From contig DPVD01000106.1 of assembly GCA_003526745.1 (NCBI GenBank), forward strand, positions 3,664-60,745: 57,082 bases of DNA, given 5' to 3'. Both the position numbers and the translations under genes were made by a program. Each line of letters starts with the position of its first letter. Positions within the stretch are counted from its first letter, which is position 1. The notes beneath the pieces are model-generated. The model was not told the DNA's origin and did no database searches. It saw nothing but the letters and a program-made list of their open reading frames with translations. Origin of the DNA: Candidatus Latescibacterota bacterium (GTDB lineage Bacteria; Latescibacterota; UBA2968). Below, one piece after another: positions 14,303-29,089 of the stretch.

Positions 14303-15802
14303 CTATCGCAATGGTCTTCGCATCGTGCCCGGAGCCTGTGCTGACTCGGATGCGCCCTTGATCTCCTCGACAAACGTCTCAACATCATCGTCATACGTAT
14401 CGAATGGGTCCCTGAAGCTCAGGTGATGCTCATTCTCCAAGTAAACGGAATCCCAATCGACGATGTATCTCAGGCGCTTCTCGGCCAGCACTTTTACGAG
14501 CGCGGATCGTCCCTTCGCTCGTGTATCCTGTGGAGGCTCCAAGTTCGCGCGATCGACTTCGTCATCCTTGATCACGCGTTGAATCCCGCCTTTCCGGTCT
14601 AGATCGTGATACAACCCTCTTTCCGGATTGATGTTATGATACTCCAAATCCAGACTCTGCAGCCAAGGATCTGACCAGTCCAATTTCTCTTCCTCGCGAA
14701 ATATGTCTAGCAGCCACTTCTTCGTGACCCAGTCGATCCGGTCCACACACTTCATAGGATCACTCTCTAGGTCATCAAGTATTCGCTCCCACTCGGTCAG
14801 AACCCAATCCGATTCGTCGTCGAGATCGGTCAGGTGCTTCTTGGCCAACTCCAGATAAGACCTCTGAATATCGATCGCCGAGATTGTCCTCCCACCCTTC
14901 CGCTCAAGGATCCACCTGTGCGTCGGATCACGTGAGACCTCCTTCAGTGCCCAAACGGGATCACCAAGACTAACGTCTTTCGGAAAAACCTTTCGCTCCA
15001 GCAGATTCAGAACCATCGCTGTTGTGCCGACTTTCAGTGCGTTCGCATACTCAGACATGTTCGAGTCGCCCAAGAGCAAGTGAAGTCGTCTGAACTTGCT
15101 GTGATCGGCCAGAGGCTCGTCTCGCGTGTTGATGATCGCGCGCGAGAACTGAATCCACTGATAGATCTCCGTCACAATATGGTCTGCGCGCTGTGAGATC
15201 TGGTATCCAACCGAATCCCCACGATGCGCGTCCTCCTGCTCGTCGCGCCCGTAGTAGTAGAAGCTGTCGTCGTAGCTTCCGACACGGCCAGCTCCGCTGA
15301 AGATCTGTCGTGTAACTAGGAACGGAAGTAGTGAAGGAATCACGACCGTAGAAAAAGGAACGTTCCTCCGAACGAGGTAGTTCTCGTGACATCCGAAGGT
15401 AGCACCCGTGAAGTGATCAACATTGTTCTTCAGGAACGCAGCTTCCTTCTCCAGACCGAGCGAATTCAGCGCCCGCTGCAGGATCCGTTCACCGGCACGG
15501 TCGTAAGCCACCACATCGAACAGCCCCATGCATTCGGGAGTCGCGTATTCGATGTGTCCCATGTCTATGTAGACACGGCCTGAGTTGAACAGGAACCCTC
15601 CGTTACCGGGGGGTTCATCGCGACCTCGATAGTGGATATCGACGATCCCGATCCGTTCCGAGTGGAAAATGTGGTCTTTGACCTTGACCGATATGGCATC
15701 CGGGCTAACGAAGCCCTCACGTTCGGGAGCCATACACCCGTATTCGGTCTCGAGGCCAAAAATGCGGCCAATCACATTGAACACCAAAAATGCCAGACCC
15801 AA
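14303..15802 (-). CDS. pafA: Pup/UBact ligase PafA homologue (carboxylate-amine ligase fold)
   Basis: 499 aa from TTG 15802; GTG 15775 (giving MIGRIFGLETEYG) is an alternative start. IFGLETEYG, NSGRVYIDMGHIEYATPEC and RLHLLLGDSNMSEYA are the Pup-ligase family motifs. It lacks the roughly 30-aa insertion seen in the paralogue at 17668..19215. Lies directly downstream of prcA. Confidence 0.85.
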   Translation of the reverse strand: MGLAFLVFNVIGRIFGLETEYGCMAPEREGFVSPDAISVKVKDHIFHSERIGIVDIHYRGRDEPPGNGGFLFNSGRVYIDMGHIEYATPECMGLFDVVAYDRAGERILQRALNSLGLEKEAAFLKNNVDHFTGATFGCHENYLVRRNVPFSTVVIPSLLPFLVTRQIFSGAGRVGSYDDSFYYYGRDEQEDAHRGDSVGYQISQRADHIVTEIYQWIQFSRAIINTRDEPLADHSKFRRLHLLLGDSNMSEYANALKVGTTAMVLNLLERKVFPKDVSLGDPVWALKEVSRDPTHRWILERKGGRTISAIDIQRSYLELAKKHLTDLDDESDWVLTEWERILDDLESDPMKCVDRIDWVTKKWLLDIFREEEKLDWSDPWLQSLDLEYHNINPERGLYHDLDRKGGIQRVIKDDEVDRANLEPPQDTRAKGRSALVKVLAEKRLRYIVDWDSVYLENEHHLSFRDPFDTYDDDVETFVEEIKGASESAQAPGTMRRPLR

Positions 15803-15839
15803 CTGGGCCCGGCATAGAGAGCGATCTGAAGGGGAAACA

Positions 15840-16616
15840 TCAGCCTATCAGCGCATCGATGGCGGCTTGAGTCTCCTCGGTCGGTAGTGTGCGATACTTC
15901 GACTTTGCGTTGCTGTTCCGGTCGAGAACGATAGCCTCGACTTCGAGGTCATCCTCCATAGCTTCTTTAAGGATACGCGTTATTTCTCCTGAAGGGACAC
16001 CATTATCTTCAATAGCCGACTCCTTCTGAAGACCGACATATCGGCCAGCTGCCCACCCTCGAAGAGCGGCTGAAAGGCTCGCCGGAAGGCCGGATTGCAC
16101 ACTATGGTCGCTCTTCAGCATCTGCTGCATCGTTCGATCGGCCTCCAGCGACCCGCCGATAGCTGCGTACGATTCGTGTGTCGCGAAGGACCCGTCGTAG
16201 TCAACGGTATAGAACAGTGATCCTTCGCATCCGTCGAGTTCCGCCAGCAGAATCCGCGCAATATAAGGGGACCGTATTATATCATCAAAGGACGCCTTCA
16301 CGGCAGGCCCGAGCCCAAAGTGTACGATCTGTTGAAGGGTCACGTCGGAATCCGAGTAGTTGAACCCGACGACGCTCGCCAGATCGACTGCAGCCTGTCT
16401 GAGTTTCTCGATATCCGTCGGGTGTCCGACCGATCCCATTGCGATCCGGTCATACGTCTCATACAGCTTTTTCTGACCGCGGCCCATCGTCACGAGCAGC
16501 AGACCCTCCCCATACTCAAGACCGACCACCGGACTCCCCCCTCGGAGCTGATCCTCAATGTAGTCACGTCGGTTCGAGACGGCTTCTGCAAAGCGATAAG
16601 GTTCGTCAAGCATCAT
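15840..16616 (-). CDS. prcA: bacterial 20S proteasome alpha subunit
   Basis: 258 aa. Ntn-hydrolase fold without an N-terminal Thr. GSPVVGLEYGEGLLLVT...LYETYDRIAMGSVGHPTDIEKLRQAAV parallels actinobacterial PrcA. A 15-nt spacer containing GAGG follows the prcB stop. Confidence 0.9.
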   Translation of the reverse strand: MMLDEPYRFAEAVSNRRDYIEDQLRGGSPVVGLEYGEGLLLVTMGRGQKKLYETYDRIAMGSVGHPTDIEKLRQAAVDLASVVGFNYSDSDVTLQQIVHFGLGPAVKASFDDIIRSPYIARILLAELDGCEGSLFYTVDYDGSFATHESYAAIGGSLEADRTMQQMLKSDHSVQSGLPASLSAALRGWAAGRYVGLQKESAIEDNGVPSGEITRILKEAMEDDLEVEAIVLDRNSNAKSKYRTLPTEETQAAIDALIG

Positions 16617-16631
16617 ACGAGAACGGCCTCG

Positions 16632-17468
16632 TTATCCTTCGTCTATGAATCGCGCGTGAAGCGCACGCAGATCATTCGCATCTACATTGGATATCCCGTC
16701 AGCGGTCACTGTTTTGACCGTCGGGAAGACGTCTGCACTTCGTTCGTATCTCCCCGTCGCTGAATCGTATTCGGAGGCCGTAAACAGAAGACGCAGCGAC
16801 AGCCCGATGGCCTCTTCTCTCGGGAGGTCCGAAAACCGGGTCTGCCCCCAGCGATTAAGGTGATACATCACACCCCGGATGGCGGGAGAACCCGAGCCTG
16901 TCGTCGTAAAGTCTGTGACTTCGAACTGTGCTCCAAGCGCATCATAGAAGAAGATCTTCCCGGCCTCGTCGCGACTATCGTAGATCGCAAAGATAGGGAT
17001 CACGGCACCTATCCCCTGGATGGCCATCGGAAGGTTATCGCGAATAAGGATCGAGAGCCGCCTGAGCTTTGCTTCGATGCTCATCTCGGTTAGCTGACGG
17101 CGGCGATGATACTGGAAGGAATGCTCCAGAATTCGGGCAATCTCGTAGGCCATAGCGGGAGAACCCGAGATCGCCATAACAGAGTGATCATCGATCGGCA
17201 GCACCTTGTCAGCTCGATCATAAATCACCGCATTCCCAGCAGTAGCCCGACGATCACCAGCAATAAGTACACCGTCGTCATAGCGAAGCGCTAAGATGGT
17301 TGTGCCTTCGGTCGGCGTAAACGCCGATCCCTGACCGGAGGAGACCTCGGCCACGACCTGGCCGGGAAAGTGATACCCGCCTGCTTTCAGGAGATCAAAG
17401 AAGTCGGCGCCCGGTCCAAGTGTGGGCAGGGCGCCGAAGTTGAATCCGTCACTTGATGAGTCGGGCAT
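16632..17468 (-). CDS. prcB: bacterial 20S proteasome beta subunit with propeptide
   Basis: 278 aa. A 55-aa propeptide ends ...TPTEG, followed by TTILALRYDDGVLIAGDRRATAGNAVIYDRADK. Counting from the predicted mature N-terminus (codon at 17301-17303), Thr1, Asp17 and Lys33 are all present. Confidence 0.92.
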   Translation of the reverse strand: MPDSSSDGFNFGALPTLGPGADFFDLLKAGGYHFPGQVVAEVSSGQGSAFTPTEGTTILALRYDDGVLIAGDRRATAGNAVIYDRADKVLPIDDHSVMAISGSPAMAYEIARILEHSFQYHRRRQLTEMSIEAKLRRLSILIRDNLPMAIQGIGAVIPIFAIYDSRDEAGKIFFYDALGAQFEVTDFTTTGSGSPAIRGVMYHLNRWGQTRFSDLPREEAIGLSLRLLFTASEYDSATGRYERSADVFPTVKTVTADGISNVDANDLRALHARFIDEG

Positions 17469-17650
17469 TATTCCCCGGTCCGCTGACGATACCTTCTGGC
17501 CTGGTTTGGATCGACGCGCCGCATACGTCGCATCAGGTCCTGCGTATCAGGCCTGTCTACCTTCGGACGGCTCGGACCCCCTTCGTCATCTTCAGGACGT
17601 AAGGGTTTGGTTGGACGCTGTTTTCTCTCGAATGAAACAAACCTGTCCAT
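17468..17650 (-). CDS. pup: UBact/Pup-type prokaryotic ubiquitin-like modifier, 60 aa, C-terminal Glu
   Basis: ORF track gives 17468..17671 (GTG). GGAGGA at 17657-17662 sits 6 nt before ATG 17650, giving MDRFVSFERKQRPTKPLRPEDDEGGPSRPKVDRPDTQDLMRRMRRVDPNQARRYRQRTGE. The ORF lies between dop and prcB, and its stop overlaps the prcB ATG (TAATG). Low complexity, no predicted fold. Confidence 0.8.
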   Translation of the reverse strand: MDRFVSFERKQRPTKPLRPEDDEGGPSRPKVDRPDTQDLMRRMRRVDPNQARRYRQRTGE

Positions 17651-17667
17651 AGTCATTCCTCCTATTA

Positions 17668-19215
17668 TCACGCCAGCGCAACCGGCTGGAGATCTGTAGC
17701 TCTCAAAGAATCAATTAATTGTTCAAGTGTACTGGACTCGTCGAGAATCGCGTTACAGGCCCGAGCAAGATCGGTTTCGACCATACCCCGAAGGTCCACC
17801 GCCTCGTATCGACCGTTAATAGAGAAAACAACGCGGTCCCAGTTGATTGACTTCACAGAGTCGCCAAACTTCTCGAGCGACCGTCCCCTGAAATAAGCTC
17901 GCGTTCCGACAGGTGGCGCCGCCATCGCTTCGGCGATCTCCTCATCCTCAACAAGCCTCAGAGTCTGACCCTCTGCTTCTAAAAGATAATAAAGACCACT
18001 CTCCCGGTCGACATTATGATACTCAAGATCCTGACTCTGCAGCCAGGTCATATCATCCGTGTTGTCCCAAGACAGGTCCTCCGCTTCCCGAAAACTGTCG
18101 ATCAGGAACTTCTTCGTAACCCAATCTATGCTCCCGATCAAGGACGCGTAGTCGGATTCAAGGGAATCGAGCGTCTGTTCCCACGCCTGAAGAACCCAGT
18201 CCGTTTCCGGGTCTTCGCCCGTGAAACGCTTCTGCGCCCGTCCAAGATATTCTCGCTGGATATCGACCGCGGGAATGAGACGGTTCGGAGATCCTTCGAC
18301 CTCGGCCAGCCATTGGTAAGTCTGATCCAGTGCGATGTTCCGCATGGCGGACACTGGATTCCGAAGCACGATATCCGGTAAGTCGTCCTGCTCGATCAAT
18401 CCCACGACCAAGGCCGTGGCCCCGACCTTCAGTGCCGTCGCGAACTCCGACATGTTGGAGTCACCGACGATCACGTGAAGCCTGCGGTATCGGTCGGAGT
18501 CGGCGTGCGGCTCGTCCCGCGTGTTCACAAGAGGTCGCTTGTGCATAGTATCGATGCTGGCGATCACTTCGAAGAACTCGGAACGCTGAGCAATCTGGAA
18601 AAGGCCGGCCTTCTTCCCGCGCTCTTCTCCAACCTTGCCCGCTCCCGCATAAATCTGCCGAGTGGCAAAGAACGGCAGCAACCCCTGAACGATCCGATCG
18701 AACGGCGTTATACGGGCCATCAGATAGTTCTCGTGGCATCCGTAGCTGTGGCCCTCGAAGTCCGTGTTGTTCTTGTACATCACAACACGTCCCGATCCGA
18801 GTGCTTCTGTTCGCCGATCAGCGCAGATACTGACGATTCGCTCCCCCGCCTTGTCCTGTGCGACGAGCTCGAACAGCCCGAGACATTCACCCGTCGCGTA
18901 TTCCGGATGGGTGTGATCGTTGTAGAATCGGGCGCCGTTGTAGATGATCAGGTCGCTCTTCAGCTCCTTGAACGGAATCTTTCGCTCCCGATCCTGCTGC
19001 AGATGGACCTTTTCGTCAGTGTCGTTCAGCAGCTCTTTAACTTCAAACCCCCGAGCGTCCTTGCGTGGATTTTCGAGCTTATAGTCCCAGAGCGGCACGA
19101 ATTCGGCATCAGAGTAACATCGAATCAGCTGCATGGACTCTTCGACGACGTCGATCTTGTCGACATCCTCAATCGTAATGCCGTACTCCGTTTCGATCCC
19201 GAAAAGCCTGTTCAT
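17668..19215 (-). CDS. dop: Dop homologue (deamidase/depupylase of Pup)
   Basis: 515 aa. LFGIETEYG, NGARFYNDHTHPEYATGEC and RLHVIVGDSNMSEFA are present. It carries an extra segment WDYKLENPRKDARGFEV..., which matches my memory of the M. tuberculosis Dop loop region (WDYEVESPLRDARGFDL). Sits immediately downstream of mpa and upstream of the modifier, as in actinobacteria. Confidence 0.88.
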   Translation of the reverse strand: MNRLFGIETEYGITIEDVDKIDVVEESMQLIRCYSDAEFVPLWDYKLENPRKDARGFEVKELLNDTDEKVHLQQDRERKIPFKELKSDLIIYNGARFYNDHTHPEYATGECLGLFELVAQDKAGERIVSICADRRTEALGSGRVVMYKNNTDFEGHSYGCHENYLMARITPFDRIVQGLLPFFATRQIYAGAGKVGEERGKKAGLFQIAQRSEFFEVIASIDTMHKRPLVNTRDEPHADSDRYRRLHVIVGDSNMSEFATALKVGATALVVGLIEQDDLPDIVLRNPVSAMRNIALDQTYQWLAEVEGSPNRLIPAVDIQREYLGRAQKRFTGEDPETDWVLQAWEQTLDSLESDYASLIGSIDWVTKKFLIDSFREAEDLSWDNTDDMTWLQSQDLEYHNVDRESGLYYLLEAEGQTLRLVEDEEIAEAMAAPPVGTRAYFRGRSLEKFGDSVKSINWDRVVFSINGRYEAVDLRGMVETDLARACNAILDESSTLEQLIDSLRATDLQPVALA

Positions 19216-19218
19216 CTG

Positions 19219-20862
19219 CTAGATAACGCTCTGCTGACTGCGTCGCTTAGTCGCCTCAGGACGAATCGGCGCAACCTTGACGACGTTCTCGGGTTCGTAA
19301 TCGAGGAGTTTCAACCAGTCTTCCGTGCTATCGTTGGGAGGAAATATCTCGTTCTCCGCATACTCTGTCGCAACAGCGTTCATCAAATCCTCTAGCGATA
19401 TCCCTTCGTCGTTCCCCGACGCAATCGACCTGAGGATCGCATACTCTTTCGCCCTTCGAACGATCGATTCGAGCACGGCGCCGCTGCAGAGATCCGCTCT
19501 GTGCAAAATCTCCTTCCGGCCGCTTTTAAGCGTCACTTCCAGGAAACGTGTGTCGTCTCGTCTGGCAAAAATCTCTTCCACCATCTCGTTGACGCAGTGA
19601 TCAATCGCATTGAGCTCGGATCCACTTTCCTCTAATCCAAGATCGATCGGCAAATCCGGCGTGAGGTAAATCTTCAGGATTTCGCCAGCGTCCGCCTTAC
19701 CTGGACGTGTGACCTTGATCTTTCGATCGATCCGTCCGGGCCGCAGGATGGCTGGATCGATAAGGTCTGGACGATTCGACGCCAGGATCAGAACCACGTC
19801 CTGCAGAGAATCGATCCCATCCATCTCGGCGCAGAACATCGGGACAACGGTATTCGATATGCTGTGTGACCGCATCGCACGACGCGTTCCCAAGATCGAC
19901 TCAGCCTCGTCGATAAACACAACGGGCAAATACCCCTCTTTACGTTTTTCACGAGCCCGACTGAAGATCTCCCGTACTTGGCGCTCGGACTCACCCAGCC
20001 ACATGTTCAGGATCTCGGGACCCTTGATGTGCATGAAGCACTGCTTCATATCCCGATTACCCTCCCGTTGGGCTTGGAGTGCCAAGTTGTAAGCCGTCGC
20101 CTTGCCGATACGTGTTTTCCCGCATCCCGGCGGACCATACAACAAAAAGCCTTTGGGAGTGCTGTACTGAAACCTCTCGAAGAGCTCAGGATGTAGAACG
20201 GGCATTTCGATCGTGTCTTTGATCGCGTGTATGGCTTCTTCTTGGCCTCCAATCCTCTCCCAAGGCAGATCCGGAATCTCCTCGAGGTAGTAGTCGCTAA
20301 CCTCGGGGTTGTCGATCCGCTCAATGGCCACGCGGAAGCTCGGATCTACACGCACGTCCTCGCCCACCTTCAGATCCTCGTCTAGCAGCAGAGTCGACCG
20401 GGACAGGATGGTGGACTGGGCCCCGTGCTCCTGTCCGACACGAATTCGGCCGTCCTTCAGCACATCCGTGATCTTCGCGATGGAGCCCGCGAACTGATAC
20501 CCGAGACAACCGACGACGGCGAACGCTTCGTTCACCCGAACACGACTACCGACCTCCAGATCGTCCGCGTTGATTCGGGCATCGACATTTGCGTAATATT
20601 CCGACCCTCCAACCGAGATACAGGCGACCCCGTTCTTGGGCGGCTCTAGTAGCGTCCCAATCCGGTTCGCAGGACCCGTCACCTTCTCCAGTGCCCCTTC
20701 AAGCTCGACGATCGTTCGGCGCGCCTCTTCAAAGGTGATCTCGTCTTCCTGGAGTTGGCGCCTTAGTTGATACAGCAGGGATCGACGTTTGTCTTTCTCG
20801 TCCATCGACATGAGGATCTGGTCGATGAGCGACAGGGACTGAAACGTATGCTGCATGTCCAC
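19219..20862 (-). CDS. mpa: proteasome-associated AAA+ ATPase (Mpa/ARC)
   Basis: 547 aa (GTG 20862 or ATG 20856). N-terminal coiled-coil-like segment, an OB-type middle region, Walker A GPPGCGKT and Walker B VVFIDEAES. First gene of the operon; its stop lies 3 nt before the dop ATG. Confidence 0.9.
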   Translation of the reverse strand: MDMQHTFQSLSLIDQILMSMDEKDKRRSLLYQLRRQLQEDEITFEEARRTIVELEGALEKVTGPANRIGTLLEPPKNGVACISVGGSEYYANVDARINADDLEVGSRVRVNEAFAVVGCLGYQFAGSIAKITDVLKDGRIRVGQEHGAQSTILSRSTLLLDEDLKVGEDVRVDPSFRVAIERIDNPEVSDYYLEEIPDLPWERIGGQEEAIHAIKDTIEMPVLHPELFERFQYSTPKGFLLYGPPGCGKTRIGKATAYNLALQAQREGNRDMKQCFMHIKGPEILNMWLGESERQVREIFSRAREKRKEGYLPVVFIDEAESILGTRRAMRSHSISNTVVPMFCAEMDGIDSLQDVVLILASNRPDLIDPAILRPGRIDRKIKVTRPGKADAGEILKIYLTPDLPIDLGLEESGSELNAIDHCVNEMVEEIFARRDDTRFLEVTLKSGRKEILHRADLCSGAVLESIVRRAKEYAILRSIASGNDEGISLEDLMNAVATEYAENEIFPPNDSTEDWLKLLDYEPENVVKVAPIRPEATKRRSQQSVI

Positions 20863-21502
20863 ATAGTCTTGTAGGAAGTCGTCGGGCGACTTGCGCTGGC
20901 GGCTATCATCATCTTGAGAGTTGATAGGTCACCCCCATAGGAGTTTAAGTCGGGAAAGGTTGACCAATGGGCTTAGTTTAGCACACCCATACCCGGGTGT
21001 CAAGACGACCCAGAATCATTATTTCAATGTAAAACAATATGTTACAACAAAAAACCGCCTCCTAGCCACGGAGCCGGTGAGGAAAGTAGGTAGCCTTCGT
21101 GGTTCAGGCCAAAAGGTCGATCCCCCCCGAAGATGGCGCGTGCTGCAATCCTGGATCTGGAGACTCCTCGTTGCCTGAGTCCGTTCCCCGTCCTCTTCTT
21201 TGAGCACCGTGGTCACGGGTATTCTGTTCCTCAATTTTTCTGTCGGGGTCCATTCGATCGGAAGGCAAGGGGCGAGAAGTGTCCTCGGCACGCTGGATAG
21301 CCAGCGATGATGCGGCGCCCTGAACAGTATCAGCCCCATCCCTAATTAAGAGGTTATGTTGCCTCGAAGCCTCTAACGTAACGAGACGGAAGTTCTCCTG
21401 AAATTCTACAGCTCGCACCTGCATATCGCGATTACCTGGGTTGGCCAGATGTTGATTACCTACATTAAAAAGTTATCCGGCTCGAAGGCAAAAGTCAACG
21501 GG

Positions 21503-22574: not shown

Positions 22575-23966
22575 TTACTTCAGGAGCAGCATCTTCTGCG
22601 AGGCTGAAAACTGTCCGGCCTCAACCTTTGCGATGTAGACACCGCTACCGACACCACGACCCAAGTTGTCGAGCGCATCCCACTGGACCGTGTAGCGACC
22701 AGCGTTTTTTTGCTCTGTCACCAAGCGACGGACTTCCTGACCCAGGGCATCGTAGATCACGATCGAAACGGCCGACTCACTCGGCAGATCGTAGGCGATC
22801 GTCGTTGCTGGGTTGAAAGGGTTCGGATAAATGTGCGTTCCGAATTCCGTCGGAAGATCGAGAAAACGTGCACCGAGGATCACTTCGATCGGGGCAGAAC
22901 TATGAATGGCTCCGTCGAGATCGAGCTGGTCGAGGCGGTAGAAAACCTTCTCGACACCCGGGACATTCGAATCTTTAAATCCGTAGTTCAGGACTGCATC
23001 AGATGTTCCGGCACCCGGAATAAAGTCGCTCACGACTTCGTAAGTGATTCCGTCCGTGCTCCGCATCACCTGCCAGCCCGCGTTGTTCGTTTGTGAAACC
23101 GTCGTCCAGTTCAGGGCGACGCTTTCTTCTAGGACCGAGCCGCCGAAAGAGGCAAGCTCAGCCGGAACCTGCTCACTGAAAGTGACGCTGACAGCTGCTG
23201 TAGTCGTCGTGCCATCAGATGCTGTGACATCGGCCGTTGCCGCACCGGAGCCGCTAGCGGTCAGTGTGAGCGTGCCGTCACCGTTATCTGTATCACTGAT
23301 CGTAGCCGTACCGCCTGTTGAGGTAACCGTGAAACTGACGACTGCGCCAGCCGGGAAACCCGAGGCTGTGACTGTGATCGCTGGTGAGACTCCACCCCGC
23401 GGGATCTCGACAATGCTTACATCTGCCGCCGCTTTGGGAACGGCATTGAAGGCCATCGTCTGGGAAATTGTTCGTTTGTCGGTCGCAGATGCAGCTAGTT
23501 CTACGCTGACTGTAACCGAAAACTCCACACCTGTTACATCAGCTACCGTAACAAGCGTGATTGCTCCCAAATAACCCGCTGTTGGCGTTACCGGCCCCGT
23601 CAGTGACCCAACTGATTGGGCCGTGGCTGTCCCGGGTAGCTTGATCCCAAAAGGGGTGTCCATATTCGCATTTGCAGCTGAGTCCATCGTTATCTGTGTG
23701 TTATCTGCAGTCAGGCTGAAATTGGCTCCGGAAAGTCCTGTGGTTACTGGATTCGCGAAGACTTCAATAACAACAGCCGTACCTGCACCTGCTACTACAC
23801 CACCCGTCACGCCATCATCCGTCTTGTTACCGGTACTTGCGTCTGCTCCGACATAGTCAAGCGTCAGAACCGCATCTAAGTTGGAGGTCTGACCCAGCAC
23901 CTCCGTTCCGGTGAAGAGCCAAGCAGCCGCGACGAGCCAGAGAACAACCATTCTGGTACTCTTCAT
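22575..23966 (-). CDS. secreted surface protein with T9SS type-A / FlgD-Ig-like C-terminal sorting domain
   Basis: ORF 22575..24050; start ATG 23966 (GAGGA upstream) gives signal peptide MKSTRMVVLWLVAAAWLFTGTEVLGQ. T/A/G/V-rich Ig-like middle region. C-terminus IYPNPFNPATTIAYDLPSESAVSIVIYDALGQEVRRL...SGVYIAKVEAGQFSASQKMLLLK. Confidence 0.85.
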   Translation of the reverse strand: MKSTRMVVLWLVAAAWLFTGTEVLGQTSNLDAVLTLDYVGADASTGNKTDDGVTGGVVAGAGTAVVIEVFANPVTTGLSGANFSLTADNTQITMDSAANANMDTPFGIKLPGTATAQSVGSLTGPVTPTAGYLGAITLVTVADVTGVEFSVTVSVELAASATDKRTISQTMAFNAVPKAAADVSIVEIPRGGVSPAITVTASGFPAGAVVSFTVTSTGGTATISDTDNGDGTLTLTASGSGAATADVTASDGTTTTAAVSVTFSEQVPAELASFGGSVLEESVALNWTTVSQTNNAGWQVMRSTDGITYEVVSDFIPGAGTSDAVLNYGFKDSNVPGVEKVFYRLDQLDLDGAIHSSAPIEVILGARFLDLPTEFGTHIYPNPFNPATTIAYDLPSESAVSIVIYDALGQEVRRLVTEQKNAGRYTVQWDALDNLGRGVGSGVYIAKVEAGQFSASQKMLLLK

Positions 23967-24017
23967 TGGATTTTCCTCATTTACCTTCGAAGATTCGCAA
24001 AAAAAAAGCGGAACCAA

Positions 24018-24041
24018 GGCCCTCATCCGAAGATGAGGGCC
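24018..24041 (-). terminator. stable hairpin between the two surface-protein genes (possible attenuator or partial terminator)
   Basis: GGCCCTCATC-cgaa-GATGAGGGCC, a perfect 10-bp stem. On the minus strand a T9 run follows, but only after an 8-9 nt spacer. Confidence 0.4.
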
Positions 24042-24058
24042 CTGATCCACTCATACGG

Positions 24059-27000
24059 CTACTTCAGCAACATCAGCTTCTTGACGTCTGAGTAGTCGCC
24101 AGCAGCGATCTGGTAAAAGTAGATCCCACTGGAGACCGACACACCCCGATCGTCCGTGCCGTTCCACCGGACCGTGTAGCGACCGGCGTTCTGCTGCTCG
24201 GCAACAAGCGTCCTTACAACCTGGCCAACCACGTTGTAAATCCGCAGCGACACGTTCTTACCATCGGCGAGATTGTACTTAATCGTCGTCTCCGGGTTGA
24301 ACGGGTTCGGGAAGTTCTGCAACAGAGCGAACTCTGTTGGTGTGCTCTCAACGTTCAGGTTTCCAAGGGCCACCACGAAGTTCGTGAGCTTCGAGCCGTC
24401 AAAGACGACACCCTCAGCGATCTCGAACCGTGCGTTGTCCTCGAACTCCGTGAGAACGCGGAACGTCAATGAAACCACATCACCTGTACCGGTAACGGGC
24501 GAACCGTCGACGATAGCGTTAGCGATGCTGAGTTCACCCGGTGCATCCTCATTCATCAGGAATACCGGTGTCTCGGCGCCATCAGCCTTGAGGAGATCCT
24601 CTTCGGCCGGTGTCGCGTTGACGAACTCAAACTTGTCTGTGTCATACGTCAGGCCAAAACCGAATCCTTGGAGCGATGCAGCGTTGTCGACCGAAACGTT
24701 CAGCGTAACCGTCTGACCAACAAGCACCTTGTTGCTCTCCAGATTCAGCGAAAGCTCGACGTTGTCGTTCACACCAGGCTGCAGCGTGCGCGGGATAACC
24801 TTCGTGCTACCTGCAGGCTGTCCGTTGACGGTTGCTGCGACCGAGTTGAAGGAACCAGCGAAGTTCAGGAAGTCAGTGAAGTCCACCGCTCCGTCATCAT
24901 TGGTGTCGGCGTTCGCGATGTAGCCCGGACCGTCAATCACCGTATTGAAAGCGCCCGCGAATGCAATGAAATCACCGAAGTCGACTGTCAACGGCGTACC
25001 GTCGTTCTGGTCGATCAGGTAGATTGCGTTGCCACTGGCGTCGAGCGCAACAACACGTGCCGCAACCGAAACGCTGACTGTCGGCGCCGAAGTGGCGTTG
25101 TCCAGATCAGCTGCATCAACGCGGTAGATAACGTTCGTCAGTGAACCAATGTCTTCAGTGAAGCTCGTCACACCACCGTCAACGCTTCCGACCAGCTCAA
25201 GGCTCGCTTCGTCAGCACCGCGGAGGATATCGTAACGATCGACACCATCGATCGGCATGGAATAGCCCTTATACGATGAGTAGGCTACAACCTTGTCGTC
25301 GACCGAAGCTGTCCACGAAAGTGTGACCACGCTGCCGTCGTTGGCACTCGCGAGCTCCGTGATAGCAGCAGGCGGAATGTTATCGACAGCCTTGACCGCT
25401 GTTTCGATCGCCGTACGGCTAGAGACCGAAACCTTCTCGGCCTGCGTGCGGATGTTCGTCGGAACCGTTGAGGCACCACCGAGCATCGCAGTCAGGTCGG
25501 GATCGATGGCCACGAAGCGGAAGCCCGTGTCACCGATGATCGACTTCACATAGTCATCACCAGGGGTGAAGACCTGCTCGAGCTCTGTCATCGACAGGAC
25601 ACGATTCGGATCCACACCCAAGAACTTCACCATATTCTGGACGATCTGCTTCGTAAAGACGCGCTTTGTGGATGCGCGCTCGGAGGAAGATCCTCCGGAC
25701 TCAGAAGCAACTGCCCATTTCGTCGCGACGTTATCGAGCGTCGGTACGACTGCACGCTGGACATCGTCTGCGGCGATGTTATCGATGACCGTCCAAGACA
25801 CCCAAGCATTCGCGGGTGTCTCGAGGGCAACGAGTTTACCGTCTGCATCGAGGCCTGTAGAGACGCTGACCTCGCGGAAGATCCGGTAACGATCTGCACT
25901 AGCTGCCTTCGGGAAGGCTACGCTAACGAAACCACCGTGGTCACCTTTACCATCCGCTCCCTTCCAATCCTGAACGAGCAGGCTTGCCGGGGCTGCGAGA
26001 GTGGCTGGGGGCGCGGCTACACCTTCAGGTGCGAAGGCAAGCGTGACACTACCAGATGCCAGTGCGTGATCCTTGGTTGCGTCGCCACCGATGCCCAGTG
26101 TGTCGGAATCGGAATTAACCGTCCTTACCGAAATCACCAGATCGCTTCCTGACGCGCTTGCTCCACCAATGGTAAAGGTGGAACCGCCCGCCGCGACGGA
26201 CTGCGGACCCTGCGGAAGTGCAACGTCACCGCGGTTGGACGAGAACTCTGCAAGAATTTCTACAATGCTCTCATCTTTGCCGACCTTAGCATCCGTCAAG
26301 GATGTTGAGTCAGCGCGCGTTGGGGCCGCCTGCATAAACACCTTGGCTGACGGATTACCAAACTCATCAGCGGGCGTTACTGAGACTTTGAAACCACCCG
26401 ATACGCCCGTTGCCGTATCGCCACCATCTGCATCAGCGACCACCGCAACGTTGTATGCAGAGAAGTTAGAAGAATTGACCGAAAGTGAATCGATCATTCC
26501 ACTAAAGTTCACGTCGGTGCCGGTCTTGTCTTCCACGTGGGCATTGAATGCTGTCAAAGCCTTCTGTGAGGTTATGTTGACCGAACGCGCACCAAGTGTC
26601 CAACCATCAGCAGACAATGTTGCCGTTCCATCCTTGTTGTCTGTAACACCAGTACCAGAGAACACCACGGTGCTCAGATCATTGGCGCCATTGGAGATAC
26701 GAATCGTGGCGGCTGTTTGGTGTGTAACAGCAGCACGGTTCGATCCTGCTGAGTTCGTCAATGCTGTGTCGATACCTGTGATGTCAAGAATCAGAGCTTG
26801 TCCAGCGATAACAGTGTCATCGCTACCGTTAGCCTTTACGACGAAAGAGTCGGCTACCGGGTTCTTGAAATCGGCATCAAACGTCAGCGTATCAGCTGCA
26901 GTCGCATTGTGGTTACCCGCTAAATCTCTCATGAGGAACTGAAGCGAGTATTCACTATTGGACTTGAGCGTATCGACGAAGATTACCTTGATCTCAGAAG

Positions 27001-28594
27001 TCGTGTTCGCAAGATCGGCAGTACCTGGTGCCATCTTGTGCTTTATCTGAGTCGCGGTTCCAGCTGTTACCGTTGTATATGTTACCGCCATCGAGTCCGT
27101 GACTTCAAGAAGCTGCAAAATCGGCATCATTGTGTCACGGTTAACCGTTGGCTTGTTCGCATTGGCAGCATCCGTTGGTGCAGAGCTGCTGGTCGGGAAC
27201 AATGAACCAGACTTGATACCAGGAGCAGTCTTGTCATATGTCACGGATGCCTGGCTGCTCTTCGTCTCGTTACCGACACTGTCCTTAAACGCGATTTCCA
27301 GCGTTCCAGACTTACCACCTTGAGCCGCGTTGCCCGCGCCGAAATCGACCGCGAAGTTCGATGACAGGCTGCTGCTCTTAATTTTAGTGGCAATTCCTGT
27401 CAGTGTACGCGTCGAGTCGCCGAACTTGGCGGTTGCCGAGTTCGCACCCTCGCTGGCCGCGAATTTAAGCGGCTGGGCAGCGAACGTTGTGGTTGTAAGA
27501 GTTCCCGACGCGGCCACTATCTTAAGCGAGGTGTCCACCACCGCTGTGAAGTGGGTACTGTCCGTTGCGCCTGACTTCGGGAAGTGAGGCGTTATTGTCG
27601 GAGCAGTTAGGTCGAGGACGTGCATGTCGACGTCCGTCACGCCAACAGGCGTTACGTCTGAGGCGTTTGTCGAACTGAGGTTGCCTGCGGCATCCTTTAG
27701 GAAGCCGACAGCCACGATTCGACGATTGTCACCCTTAACGTCTCCCGCGCTCAGCGTTACGGATGAATCGGTTGCTGATCCAGAGACCAGATCGCTGAAG
27801 GAGAAATTGACCGTCTTCATTGCACTGTCAGGCAGCGCGTCGGCGTTGGCCGTGTCAGCCAAGTGCACGATTCCTGAGGAACCGCCCGGAACGTTCGACA
27901 CAAAGAAAGACACCTTGACCTTCGATCCAACCTTGTAGGCTTTCTTCGGGTTGTCGGATTCGTTCAAACCGTCGCTGCCGGTTCCACCGCCGTCATTCGG
28001 GAAATTACCGATACCCGTCGTATCCAAGCGCACACTGTCGATGTTAGCCGCCGGACGCTGTGCATCGATACCGATTTTTACTCCGTCACCAACATTCCCG
28101 AACGAGGTCGAACCGGTAATGGTTGCTTCTGTGTTCAGGTTTGTCAGGTGCGAAAATGCCGCGCTCCCCGTCGTGCTGACGAGCGCGCTCAGGCTCAGAG
28201 TCTTCGCGGAACTCTCGACTGTCTGGCCTGCTGTGACCTTGAATGTTGCCGTAAAGGTCTTGAATCCAGTTGCGTCCGCAGCGGACGCATTGGCCGCATT
28301 GAACCTATGGACAAAGTCGTCAGCAGAGTCATTGGTCAGGGAGCCGATCGCATCAGAGATCGTCGAACTGGAAGTGTCTTCGACAATCGCCACGACCACA
28401 CTGTCCAAAGCTGCGGTACCTGGAAGATATTGAACTTTAACAACCACCGAATCGCCGATCCCCGACCAAGCATCATTGGCAGGATGGGTAACGCGGAGGC
28501 GAACGCCCTGCGGTGTCGCTGCATCTGCAACGCCGACCATACCGGCGAACAGGAGCAGAACAATGCACAGGCAACTAATTTTCTTGAGGCTCAT
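24059..28594 (-). CDS. giant secreted surface protein: Ig/FN3-like repeats, dockerin-like EF-hand pair, cohesin-like module, T9SS/FlgD-Ig C-terminal domain
   Basis: ORF 24059..28624; start ATG 28594 (AGGAGA upstream), signal peptide MSLKKISCLCIVLLLFAGMVGVADA. About 1200 aa of S/T/A/G/V-rich beta-type sequence. Dockerin-like TVDFGDFIAFAGAFN...DTNDDGAVDFTDFLNFAGSFN (about 24848-24997). Cohesin-like LVGQTVTLNVSVDNAASLQGFGFGLTYDTDKFEFV...GDVVSLTFRV (about 24332-24760). C-terminal domain FPNPFNPETTIKYNL...SGIYFYQIAAGDYSDVKKLMLLK. Confidence 0.88.
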   Translation of the reverse strand: MSLKKISCLCIVLLLFAGMVGVADAATPQGVRLRVTHPANDAWSGIGDSVVVKVQYLPGTAALDSVVVAIVEDTSSSTISDAIGSLTNDSADDFVHRFNAANASAADATGFKTFTATFKVTAGQTVESSAKTLSLSALVSTTGSAAFSHLTNLNTEATITGSTSFGNVGDGVKIGIDAQRPAANIDSVRLDTTGIGNFPNDGGGTGSDGLNESDNPKKAYKVGSKVKVSFFVSNVPGGSSGIVHLADTANADALPDSAMKTVNFSFSDLVSGSATDSSVTLSAGDVKGDNRRIVAVGFLKDAAGNLSSTNASDVTPVGVTDVDMHVLDLTAPTITPHFPKSGATDSTHFTAVVDTSLKIVAASGTLTTTTFAAQPLKFAASEGANSATAKFGDSTRTLTGIATKIKSSSLSSNFAVDFGAGNAAQGGKSGTLEIAFKDSVGNETKSSQASVTYDKTAPGIKSGSLFPTSSSAPTDAANANKPTVNRDTMMPILQLLEVTDSMAVTYTTVTAGTATQIKHKMAPGTADLANTTSEIKVIFVDTLKSNSEYSLQFLMRDLAGNHNATAADTLTFDADFKNPVADSFVVKANGSDDTVIAGQALILDITGIDTALTNSAGSNRAAVTHQTAATIRISNGANDLSTVVFSGTGVTDNKDGTATLSADGWTLGARSVNITSQKALTAFNAHVEDKTGTDVNFSGMIDSLSVNSSNFSAYNVAVVADADGGDTATGVSGGFKVSVTPADEFGNPSAKVFMQAAPTRADSTSLTDAKVGKDESIVEILAEFSSNRGDVALPQGPQSVAAGGSTFTIGGASASGSDLVISVRTVNSDSDTLGIGGDATKDHALASGSVTLAFAPEGVAAPPATLAAPASLLVQDWKGADGKGDHGGFVSVAFPKAASADRYRIFREVSVSTGLDADGKLVALETPANAWVSWTVIDNIAADDVQRAVVPTLDNVATKWAVASESGGSSSERASTKRVFTKQIVQNMVKFLGVDPNRVLSMTELEQVFTPGDDYVKSIIGDTGFRFVAIDPDLTAMLGGASTVPTNIRTQAEKVSVSSRTAIETAVKAVDNIPPAAITELASANDGSVVTLSWTASVDDKVVAYSSYKGYSMPIDGVDRYDILRGADEASLELVGSVDGGVTSFTEDIGSLTNVIYRVDAADLDNATSAPTVSVSVAARVVALDASGNAIYLIDQNDGTPLTVDFGDFIAFAGAFNTVIDGPGYIANADTNDDGAVDFTDFLNFAGSFNSVAATVNGQPAGSTKVIPRTLQPGVNDNVELSLNLESNKVLVGQTVTLNVSVDNAASLQGFGFGLTYDTDKFEFVNATPAEEDLLKADGAETPVFLMNEDAPGELSIANAIVDGSPVTGTGDVVSLTFRVLTEFEDNARFEIAEGVVFDGSKLTNFVVALGNLNVESTPTEFALLQNFPNPFNPETTIKYNLADGKNVSLRIYNVVGQVVRTLVAEQQNAGRYTVRWNGTDDRGVSVSSGIYFYQIAAGDYSDVKKLMLLK

Positions 28595-29089
28595 TACATC
28601 TTCTCCTAAGAAAAACAGACTCAAAGGCAGATGGATGAATCATTCTGTGTTTTCATCTACAAAAAATCTTCTTGCCTTCGGAAATTAACTTCTCGTTTCC
28701 CCGAACTTCCAGCCCAAGTCAGAGATTTCTGGGGTGATGGGCGGAATGAAAAACGAGCTGCGGCACTTAGCCTATATGGATCCCTCCCTTCCTTGCGTCT
28801 GAATTTTTCGCTGCATTGACTCTAATTTATGTTTTGCTTTTCAAGATGGGCCCAGCCCTTTATTTCGACCAGAACCAGGCTGTTGTGCACCTAAAATAGG
28901 AAAACACAAAGATGCGGCCACCCCCCAGGGGGCCCGCAACTTCATTAAAAACAACTACTTAGATTTCAGTTACGTGCTTTTCACCCTAAAGCAACGGCCT
29001 TATTATACAGATACAAAAATGGGCTGTCAAGCGTTTTCTCGGTGATTAAAATGCACCAAAAGCCTCAGAAAATACGGCACTTTCGTGCA

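What the first reader, a model, noticed from the sequence alone, without database searches (positions are those of the whole stretch)
17468..17671. The modifier is a basic 60-aa disordered peptide ending ...RRYRQRTGE: UBact-type, not canonical Pup
Seen: a GGAGGA Shine-Dalgarno at 17657-17662 sits 6 nt before ATG 17650. The product is MDRFVSFERKQRPTKPLRPEDDEGGPSRPKVDRPDTQDLMRRMRRVDPNQARRYRQRTGE. By my count it has 17 Lys/Arg against 11 Asp/Glu, so it is net positive. It ends in Gly-Glu, and its stop overlaps the prcB start. Established: actinobacterial Pup is acidic, ends GGQ or GGE, and is coupled through the terminal Glu side chain. My recollection of the UBact description is a conserved ...RYRQRxGE-like C-terminus, which this matches. 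Inference: a ligation-ready terminal Glu, and charge properties opposite to Pup. Recognition by the Mpa coiled coil may therefore work differently. Trypsin would leave a Thr-Gly-Glu remnant on target lysines (sum of residue masses about 287.1 Da), giving a direct proteomic handle.
Basis: partly seen in the sequence, partly recalled or inferred. Interest (0 to 1): 0.75.

Follow-up and report, generated by a model that had tools for sequence, protein, structure and literature searches.

The report
UBact tag gene in proteasome operon
This 60-residue gene is a textbook member of the already described UBact family, the Pup-like protein tag of non-actinobacterial bacteria, and it sits in its usual place inside a bacterial proteasome operon, so the call is correct but ordinary.

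Summary

The peptide matches both curated UBact models over their full length. These are Pfam PF20513 (77 bits) and NCBIfam NF033388 (79 bits, cut-off 35). It gives no hit to the Pfam Pup model.

It lies in the canonical order Mpa-like ATPase, Dop-like enzyme, UBact, PrcB, PrcA, PafA-like enzyme. That order is complete in 80 of 87 related loci. At least 536 species genomes carry the gene, and the identical protein is already in public marine MAG assemblies.

Codon changes in the last nine codons are 484 synonymous to 7 non-synonymous, so the peptide is translated.

The basic charge and the RYRQR[TS]G[EQ] end are features of the whole family. They are not special to this window.

[quoted passage not shown] This is inferred by analogy with Pup; I found no UBact experiment.

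The idea that receptor recognition differs from Pup has only weak support.

Verdict: a correct call of an already known family; low interest.

The parts
17468..17650 (-). UBact gene: a 60-aa basic modifier ending ...RRYRQRTGE. The stop TAA is at 17470-17468.
   Evidence: Translation. Pfam PF20513 at 77.2 bits, profile 1-43/43. NCBIfam NF033388 equivalog at 78.9 bits against a cut-off of 35. Purifying selection on the codons.
17657..17662 (-). GGAGGA Shine-Dalgarno site, 6 nt upstream of ATG 17650.
   Evidence: Read directly from the sequence.
19219..20862 (-). Mpa/ARC-like proteasomal AAA ATPase with an N-terminal coiled coil, two OB domains and an AAA domain. It ends in ...SQQSVI, not GQYL. 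Gene callers start it at ATG 20856.
   Evidence: Pfam Prot_ATP_ID_OB_N, Prot_ATP_ID_OB_C and AAA. TIGR03689 at 461 bits. PDB Mpa chains at about 338 bits. C-termini compared.
17668..19215 (-). Dop-like paralogue, the probable de-conjugase (and deamidase where UBact ends in Gln). It has the long Dop-loop insertion.
   Evidence: TIGR03688 Dop 439 bits against PafA 359. PDB Dop 382 bits against PafA 245. The distance from the ETEY motif to the catalytic Asp is 92 residues; active-site motif YNDHTHPEY.
16632..17468 (-). Proteasome beta subunit PrcB, with a propeptide of about 55 aa followed by TTILAL... Thr1, Asp17 and Lys33 are present. Its start overlaps the UBact stop (TAATG).
   Evidence: Pfam Proteasome at 100 bits. 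TIGR03690 at 175 bits. Sequence read.
15840..16616 (-). Divergent proteasome alpha subunit PrcA.
   Evidence: Pfam Proteasome at 30 bits. TIGR03691 at 70 bits, below its cut-off. Conserved position in 80 of 87 loci.
14303..15802 (-). PafA-like paralogue, the probable UBact ligase. It has no Dop loop. The true start is probably GTG at 15775, which gives MIGRIFGLETEYG.
   Evidence: TIGR03686 PafA 378 bits against Dop 371. ETEY-to-Asp distance of 62 residues; motif YIDMGHIEY, conserved across the UBact loci. Sequence. Some gene callers give 490 aa.
20975..21003 (-). Promoter-like site TTGACA-17-TAAACT with an extended-10 TG, about 110 nt upstream of the ATPase gene. It is a candidate operon promoter.
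   Evidence: Consensus scan, 10 of 12 matches. This is a pattern match only.
15790..15815 (-). Terminator-like hairpin of 11 bp with a T-rich tail, between prcA and the PafA-like gene. It covers the mechanical TTG start at 15802.
   Evidence: Consensus scan. This is a pattern match only.

Best explanation
The ORF encodes UBact, the Pup-like small protein modifier of non-actinobacterial bacteria. It is expressed from a six-gene operon: Mpa-like ATPase, Dop-like enzyme, UBact, PrcB, PrcA and PafA-like enzyme.

Proposed mechanism, by analogy with pupylation:
1. The free peptide is largely disordered.
2. Its C-terminal two-helix module (residues 37-45 and 50-58) docks on the PafA-like carboxylate-amine ligase.
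3. The ligase phosphorylates the side-chain carboxylate of the terminal Glu60 with ATP and joins it to a lysine of a target protein.
4. Because this UBact already ends in Glu, no deamidation step is needed.
5. The tagged protein is bound by the coiled-coil/OB end of the Mpa-like ATPase. The ATPase threads the disordered N-terminal part of the tag and unfolds the substrate into the PrcA/PrcB 20S proteasome.
6. The Dop-like paralogue removes the tag.

What is shown here: family membership, operon context, conservation and coding selection, the predicted two-helix tail, and intact catalytic residues in PrcB and both ligase-family paralogues.

What is inferred: conjugation itself, which paralogue ligates, the binding partners, and degradation as the outcome.
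For: - Both curated UBact HMMs are matched full-length.
- R53-Y-R-Q-R-T-G59 is invariant, and the terminal residue is always Glu or Gln.
- The last nine codons show 484 synonymous against 7 non-synonymous codon changes.
- All five partner genes are present and syntenic. The order is complete in 80 of 87 loci from Latescibacterota, Poribacteria, Verrucomicrobia and others.
- The upstream paralogue has the Dop loop and scores as Dop. The downstream paralogue lacks the loop.
- PrcB keeps Thr1, Asp17 and Lys33 after a propeptide.
- The ATPase keeps its Walker motifs and an aromatic-hydrophobic-Gly pore loop.
- AlphaFold2 predicts coil for residues 1-36 and two helices at the C-terminus. This matches the two-helix unit plus extended tail predicted for Pup by Iyer et al. 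(PMC2588565).
- The profile-profile alignment to Pup is colinear: T.DLL...V...R.Y.Q..G.
- The TAATG or TGATG junction with prcB recurs in many loci, which suggests translational coupling.
- Pup biology used for the analogy comes from PMC3511204 and PMC7947786.
Against: - I found no experimental paper on UBact conjugation in the held library. Every functional step is therefore by analogy.
- Sequence similarity to Pup is not statistically significant (hhalign E 0.05, probability 1%).
- By overall similarity the presumed ligase is no closer to actinobacterial PafA than to Dop (PDB Dop 295 bits against PafA 239). It also has its own active-site motif, YIDMGH[LI]EY.
- The ATPase lacks the actinobacterial GQYL docking end, so its coupling to the 20S particle is not assured.
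Confidence: 0.85

Rival explanations
1. It is simply a divergent Pup orthologue. On this view UBact is a second name for one family and there is no mechanistic difference from actinobacterial pupylation.
For: - Same size, same operon slot, same terminal G-[EQ] and the same two-helix tail.
- Iyer et al. 2008 already listed such non-actinobacterial peptides as Pup orthologues with a G[EQ] signature (PMC2588565).
- The hhalign alignment is colinear.
- One family member ends RYRQKGGQ, a hybrid of the two C-termini (P0386).
Against: - The Pfam Pup model gives no hit.
- The UBact profile reaches no Pup in the PDB or among 1.84 billion proteins.
- The charge is inverted (pI 11 against 4).
- The ligase motif and the ATPase C-terminus also differ from the actinobacterial ones.
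- This is mainly a question of naming. It does not change what the gene does.
Confidence: 0.1
2. The peptide is not covalently attached to anything. It acts as a non-covalent regulator, adaptor or assembly factor of the ATPase-proteasome complex, or its arginine-rich helices bind nucleic acid or polyphosphate.
For: - It is very basic and arginine-rich.
- The proline-rich middle (GP.RP.V.RPDT) and the N-terminal ER[RK].[RK]P motif are conserved more strongly than a mere threading tail would need.
- No conjugation has been demonstrated.
Against: - The invariant terminal G-[EQ] directly before the stop codon, with near-absolute selection on the last nine codons, fits a C-terminal ligation handle.
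- Two carboxylate-amine-ligase paralogues with intact catalytic Asp motifs always flank it.
- Variants ending in Gln co-exist with variants ending in Glu, as for Pup.
Confidence: 0.04
3. It is a spurious short ORF in an intergenic spacer between the Dop-like gene and prcB.
For: It is short (60 aa), of low complexity and arginine-rich, and an antisense ORF of 76 aa also overlaps it (17422..17652 on the + strand).
Against: - Matches to curated HMMs.
- More than 536 genomes with the same reading frame.
- 1250 synonymous against 443 non-synonymous codon differences.
- A strong Shine-Dalgarno site.
Confidence: 0.01

Closest known systems
[quoted passage not shown]
   Same: - Full-length HMM match.
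- Length of about 60 aa.
- Invariant RYRQRTG-E end and basic charge.
- Position between the Dop-like gene and prcB in an ATPase-Dop-UBact-PrcB-PrcA-PafA cluster, in a non-actinobacterial lineage.
- Relatives 68-72% identical carry the name 'ubiquitin-like protein UBact' in NCBI records (Latescibacteria P0034 and P0056, Poribacteria P0070).
   Different: Nothing of substance. The N-terminal 20 residues vary as they do across the family. This lineage of marine MAGs is labelled Gemmatimonadetes or Latescibacteria. From my memory of the 2017 paper, which I could not read here, that lineage is not among the phyla it listed.
Pup, the prokaryotic ubiquitin-like protein of Actinobacteria (Pfam PF05639)
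   Same: - Small and largely disordered, with a two-helix C-terminal module.
- Terminal Gly-Glu or Gly-Gln.
- Encoded between dop and prcB.
- Accompanied by a PafA/Dop pair, an Mpa-type ATPase and a 20S proteasome.
- Colinear motif T.DL[LM]...V...R.Y.Q[KR].G[EQ].
   Different: - No significant sequence or profile match.
- TGE instead of GGE/GGQ.
- pI 11 instead of about 4.
- Four residues fewer between the two helices.
- Proline-rich middle part.
- The partner ATPase ends in -VI, not GQYL.
- The partner ligase has YIDMGH[LI]EY, not YLDVGSHPEY.
Ubiquitin and archaeal SAMPs (beta-grasp modifiers)
   Same: A small protein tag that is proposed to mark lysines for proteasomal degradation.
   Different: There is no beta-grasp fold and no E1/E2/E3 chemistry. 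Attachment would go through a Glu side-chain carboxylate made reactive by a glutamine-synthetase-fold ligase (PMC2588565, PMC3511204).

Membership tests
UBact (PF20513 / NF033388) | Scores above the curated cut-off of the family HMMs over their full length. | tested here: met
   PF20513: 77.2 bits against a cut-off of 27.8, profile 1-43/43. NF033388 equivalog: 78.9 bits against a cut-off of 35, profile 1-54/54.
UBact (PF20513 / NF033388) | C-terminus R-Y-R-Q-R-[TS]-G-[EQ] directly before the stop codon. | tested here: met
   The window peptide ends RRYRQRTGE*. R53 to G59 are invariant in 40 homologues. 119 of 120 relatives end TGE or TGQ.
UBact (PF20513 / NF033388) | Encoded in a cluster with Dop/PafA homologues, an Mpa-like ATPase and 20S proteasome subunits. 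| tested here: met
   All five partners were identified. The order is conserved in 80 of 87 related loci.
UBact (PF20513 / NF033388) | Found in a non-actinobacterial (Gram-negative type) lineage. | tested here: met
   The nearest genomes are labelled Gemmatimonadetes, Latescibacterota, Poribacteria and Verrucomicrobia. Neighbouring genes carry type IX secretion sorting domains.
UBact (PF20513 / NF033388) | Covalent attachment to lysines of target proteins through the terminal Glu. | not testable with these tools
   This needs biochemistry or proteomics. I found no published demonstration for any UBact in the held library.
Pup (PF05639) | Match to the Pup family HMM. | tested here: not met
   No PF05639 hit even at E<=10. 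The UBact profile finds no Pup chain in the PDB at E<=10.
Pup (PF05639) | Gly-Gly-[Gln/Glu] C-terminus. | tested here: not met
   The window peptide ends Thr-Gly-Glu. All 30 aligned Pup sequences end GGQ or GGE.
Pup (PF05639) | Acidic composition. | tested here: not met
   Net +6 and pI 11.0, against pI 4.05 for M. tuberculosis Pup.
Pup (PF05639) | Detectable homology at the profile-profile level. | tested here: inconclusive
   hhalign gives E 0.05 and probability 1.1%, but the alignment is colinear over 32 columns up to the penultimate Gly.
Pup (PF05639) | Disordered N-terminal part with a helical C-terminal binding module. | tested here: met
   AlphaFold2 gives no secondary structure for residues 1-36, helices at 37-45 and 50-58, and pTM 0.26. 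This is a prediction only.

The most novel reading that the evidence does not exclude
The UBact system may be more than Pup under another name. It may be a branch with rewired recognition.

Three observations point this way:
- The tag is basic and arginine-rich. It has a strongly conserved proline-rich middle (GP.RP.V.RPDT) that cannot form the long Mpa-binding helix of Pup.
- The ATPase ends in -Val-Ile instead of the Gln-Tyr-Leu docking motif.
- The ligase has its own active-site motif.

If this holds, the tag-receptor and ATPase-20S contacts would differ in kind from the mycobacterial ones. The conserved middle of the tag would be a second, so far undescribed, recognition element.
Probability: 0.25. 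Interest if true: 0.5.

Novelty: already known. Interest (0 to 1): 0.2.

Why it matters
UBact has been known from sequence since 2017, and as 'Pup orthologues outside actinobacteria' since 2008. As far as I could find, it has never been shown to be conjugated.

This window adds no new kind of element. It does give a clean, complete six-gene operon with a ligation-ready Glu end that could be used for reconstitution.

That handle is a Lys +287.1117 Da Thr-Gly-Glu remnant after trypsin; for members ending SGE it would be +273.096 Da. Searching existing marine or sponge metaproteomes for it would be the cheapest first test of whether the modification exists in nature.

Tried and rejected
- **Structure of the complex.** I tried to model a PafA-like/UBact fusion, after the fusion construct of PDB 4BJR. 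The tool refuses any sequence not found verbatim in the window, so no complex model was possible.
- **Charge co-inversion.** I asked whether the partners are more acidic, to match a basic tag. The last 45 residues of the ATPase coiled coil have median net charge -3 in 84 UBact loci, against +1 in two Tsukamurella loci. The PafA-like pI is 5.2 against 6.0-6.3. Both go in the expected direction. The actinobacterial sample covers only one or two genera and the effect is small, so I do not count this as support.
- **Proline as helix breaker.** I thought Pro48 (VDPNQ) forces two separate helices. Sponge Poribacteria have VDKDQ at that place, so the proline is not universal.
- **Papers not held.** The UBact paper of 2017 and the Pup-Mpa structure paper (PMC2988878) are not in the library. 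What I say about their content is from memory.
- **Exact look-up of the protein.** The cluster look-up returned 'not in the collection'. The contig look-up nevertheless finds the identical protein: the index lists it in 60 blocks of the collection and 23 contigs were read. The two indexes evidently differ.
- **Second copy.** I searched the window for a second UBact or a Pup-like gene and found none.
- **Recent transfer.** The operon G+C (0.552) equals the window G+C (0.555), so there is no compositional sign of recent transfer.
- **RNA genes.** Rfam and tRNA scans found only one tRNA-Gln.
Full report
**1. The observation**

On the minus strand the sequence reads ...GGCGTGATAATAGGAGGAATGACTATGGACAGG....
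- The stop of the upstream gene is TGA at 17670-17668.
- GGAGGA lies at 17662-17657, followed by a six-base spacer and then ATG at 17650.
- The ORF ends GGGGAATAATGCCC. Its TAA (17470-17468) shares one base with the ATG of the next gene (17468).

It has 14 Arg, 3 Lys, 7 Asp and 4 Glu, and a pI of 11.0.

The finding's upper coordinate, 17671, is the GTG of the longest mechanical ORF (67 aa). The ATG start is the better choice for three reasons: it has the ribosome-binding site, gene callers on public contigs use it, and homologues start at the aligned position.

**2. What it is**

The peptide matches Pfam PF20513 (UBact) at 77.2 bits over the whole 43-position profile. It matches NCBIfam NF033388 ('ubiquitin-like protein UBact', an equivalog model) at 78.9 bits against a cut-off of 35. 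The Pfam Pup model gives nothing even at E<=10.

The flanking genes on the same strand are, in order:
- an Mpa/ARC-type AAA ATPase (19219-20862);
- a Pup-ligase-family protein that scores best as Dop (17668-19215);
- UBact;
- a proteasome beta subunit (16632-17468);
- a divergent proteasome alpha subunit (15840-16616);
- a second Pup-ligase-family protein (14303-15802).

The beta subunit has a propeptide of about 55 residues. This is followed by TTILALRYDDGVLIAGDRRATAGNAVIYDRADK, which contains Thr1, Asp17 and Lys33.

A promoter-like site lies upstream of the ATPase gene.

**3. Relatives**

- A search of 5.8 billion proteins gave 161 homologues, all carrying PF20513. Several are named UBact by NCBI in Latescibacteria and Poribacteria.
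- Of the best 120, 109 end QRTGE and 10 end QRTGQ. Their median net charge is +4; none is below zero and one is exactly zero. The basic character is therefore a family trait.
- In a 40-sequence alignment, R9, G25, P29, V31, P34, T36, R42-R44, V46, D47, Q50 and R53-G59 are invariant.
- A profile of that alignment, run against 1.84 billion representative proteins, found 188 proteins (E<=0.001). Among the 147 retrieved, 117 end R[TS]G[EQ] and most of the rest still carry the RYRQR motif upstream of a read-through or truncated tail. None examined is an acidic Pup. One ends RYRQKGGQ, a hybrid of the two C-termini.
- The identical 60-aa protein is encoded on public marine contigs, including NCBI assemblies GCA_002714465.1 and GCA_022451785.1, with the same neighbours. 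Those loci are at least 99% identical to the window in the five partner proteins.
- A scan of one genome per species found at least 536 genomes with the gene. The nearest are labelled 'Gemmatimonadetes bacterium' and 'uncultured bacterium'. After them come Latescibacterota, Poribacteria and Verrucomicrobia.
- In 80 of 87 loci the complete order ATPase-Dop-[UBact]-PrcB-PrcA-PafA is present. The remaining loci are cut by contig ends.

**4. Is it translated?**

I compared 76 distinct DNA versions of the last 30 codons with the window. There are 1250 synonymous and 443 non-synonymous codon differences. For the last nine codons (RRYRQRTGE) the numbers are 484 and 7. This is strong purifying selection on the protein.

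The TAATG or TGATG junction with prcB recurs in many loci. That suggests translational coupling.

**5. Relation to Pup**

The best hits were 94-98% identical and carry PF05639.

Profile-profile comparison with the UBact alignment gives E 0.05 and probability 1%, which is not significant. The alignment is nevertheless colinear up to the penultimate Gly. It pairs T.DLL...V with T.DLL...V and R.Y.Q..G with R.Y.Q..G, and UBact has four residues fewer between them. A UBact profile finds no PDB chain at all.

AlphaFold2 predicts coil for residues 1-36 and two short helices at 37-45 and 50-58, with pTM 0.26. This is the same architecture that Iyer et al. predicted for Pup: a two-helix unit with an extended tail (PMC2588565). 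That 2008 paper already reported 'Pup orthologs' with a G[EQ] end in nitrospirae, verrucomicrobia, planctomycetes and a deltaproteobacterium. The name UBact dates from Lehmann et al. 2017 (reference seen in PMC12751074; the paper itself is not held).

**6. The two ligase-family paralogues**

*Upstream paralogue.* It aligns end to end with Dop structures (382 bits, against 245 for PafA). It has 92 residues between the ETEY motif and the catalytic Asp (YNDHTHPEY), so it has the Dop loop.

*Downstream paralogue.* It has only 62 residues between those motifs. That is the short spacing, without the roughly 30-residue loop segment. Its motif YIDMGH[LI]EY is conserved across the UBact loci and differs from actinobacterial PafA (YLDVGSHPEY, spacing 48). 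By overall score it is no closer to PafA than to Dop: TIGR03686 378 against TIGR03688 371 bits, and PDB Dop 295 against PafA 239 bits.

In a neighbour-joining tree the UBact-system Dop proteins group with actinobacterial Dop. The UBact-system PafA-like proteins and actinobacterial PafA are two separate long branches.

[quoted passage not shown] On that basis, and from its operon position, the downstream paralogue is the likely ligase. This is an inference.

Its real start is probably the GTG at 15775, which gives MIGRIFGLETEYG. The mechanical TTG at 15802 sits inside a terminator-like hairpin.

**7. Does recognition differ from Pup?**

In UBact loci the ATPase coiled-coil segment has a median net charge of -3 (range -5 to +2, n=84). 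In Tsukamurella it is +1. The PafA-like proteins have pI 5.2, against 6.0-6.3 in Nocardia and Tsukamurella. Both differences go in the direction expected for a basic tag. They are small, and the comparison set is narrow.

A clearer difference lies elsewhere. Nearly all of the UBact-system ATPases end in -Val-Ile (74 of 84, from the counts; the window has ...SQQSVI). The actinobacterial ones end GQYL. The tag also has a strongly conserved proline-rich middle, which Pup lacks.

I could not model complexes.

**8. Verdict**

The peptide is a standard member of a family with curated models in Pfam and NCBIfam. It sits in its standard operon, it is present verbatim in public assemblies, and NCBI records name relatives 68-72% identical as UBact. 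That makes it already known.

What remains open is true of the whole family, not of this window. I found no demonstration of conjugation in the library. The Lys +287.1117 Da Thr-Gly-Glu remnant is a sound way to look for it.

The rest of the window is ordinary chromosome. It encodes transporters, UvrC, HisD, HtrA, a Crp-family regulator, a sigma-54 activator, a proton pyrophosphatase and one tRNA-Gln.

Noticed in passing
window 19219-19236 (minus strand: C-terminal codons and stop of the ATPase gene); also L001-L088: The Mpa-like ATPase ends ...SQQSVI. Nearly all of the ATPases in the UBact loci end in -Val-Ile (74 of 84, from the counts). Actinobacterial Mpa ends GQYL, the proteasome-docking motif with a penultimate Tyr. 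The proteasome genes are present here, so docking may use a different C-terminal motif.
   Followed up: partly
window 14303-15802 (minus strand): The presumed ligase lacks the Dop loop, yet it scores higher against Dop structures (295 bits) than against PafA (239 bits). It has its own conserved active-site motif, YIDMGH[LI]EY, against YLDVGSHPEY in actinobacterial PafA. In a quick tree it does not clearly join actinobacterial PafA.
   Followed up: partly
window 15790-15815 (minus strand): An 11-bp terminator-like hairpin with a T-rich tail lies between prcA and the PafA-like gene. It covers the TTG at 15802, so the gene more likely starts at GTG 15775. It could also lower read-through into the ligase gene.
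   Followed up: no
window 17543-17581 and 17612-17632 (minus strand; UBact residues 24-36 and 7-13): The part of UBact predicted to be disordered contains invariant or nearly invariant residues (R9, P16, G25, P26, R28, P29, V31, P34, T36). These form the motifs ER[RK].[RK]P and GP.RP.V.RPDT. That is more conservation than a mere threading tail would need, and nothing explains it yet.
   Followed up: no
P0386 (representative library hit): One distant family member ends ...MRRVDPTISKRYRQKGGQ. It has a UBact body with the Pup-type KGGQ end, so it is a possible intermediate between the two families.
   Followed up: no
L020-L088 (Poribacteria loci): Sponge-associated Poribacteria carry VDKDQS where most other members have VDPNQA. 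The proline between the two predicted helices is therefore not universal.
   Followed up: partly
window 21104-21424 (minus strand): A 106-aa ORF with no Pfam match lies directly upstream of the operon's promoter-like site. It is called as a gene at the same place in close relatives (L001, L002, L005). Its function is unknown.
   Followed up: no
window 22575-24050 and 24059-28624 (minus strand): Two large proteins carry FlgD-Ig and type IX secretion C-terminal sorting domains. This points to the Fibrobacteres-Chlorobi-Bacteroidetes group. Depositors label the nearest genomes 'Gemmatimonadetes', whereas other sources name the same protein clusters 'Latescibacteria'. The taxonomic labels conflict.
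   Followed up: no
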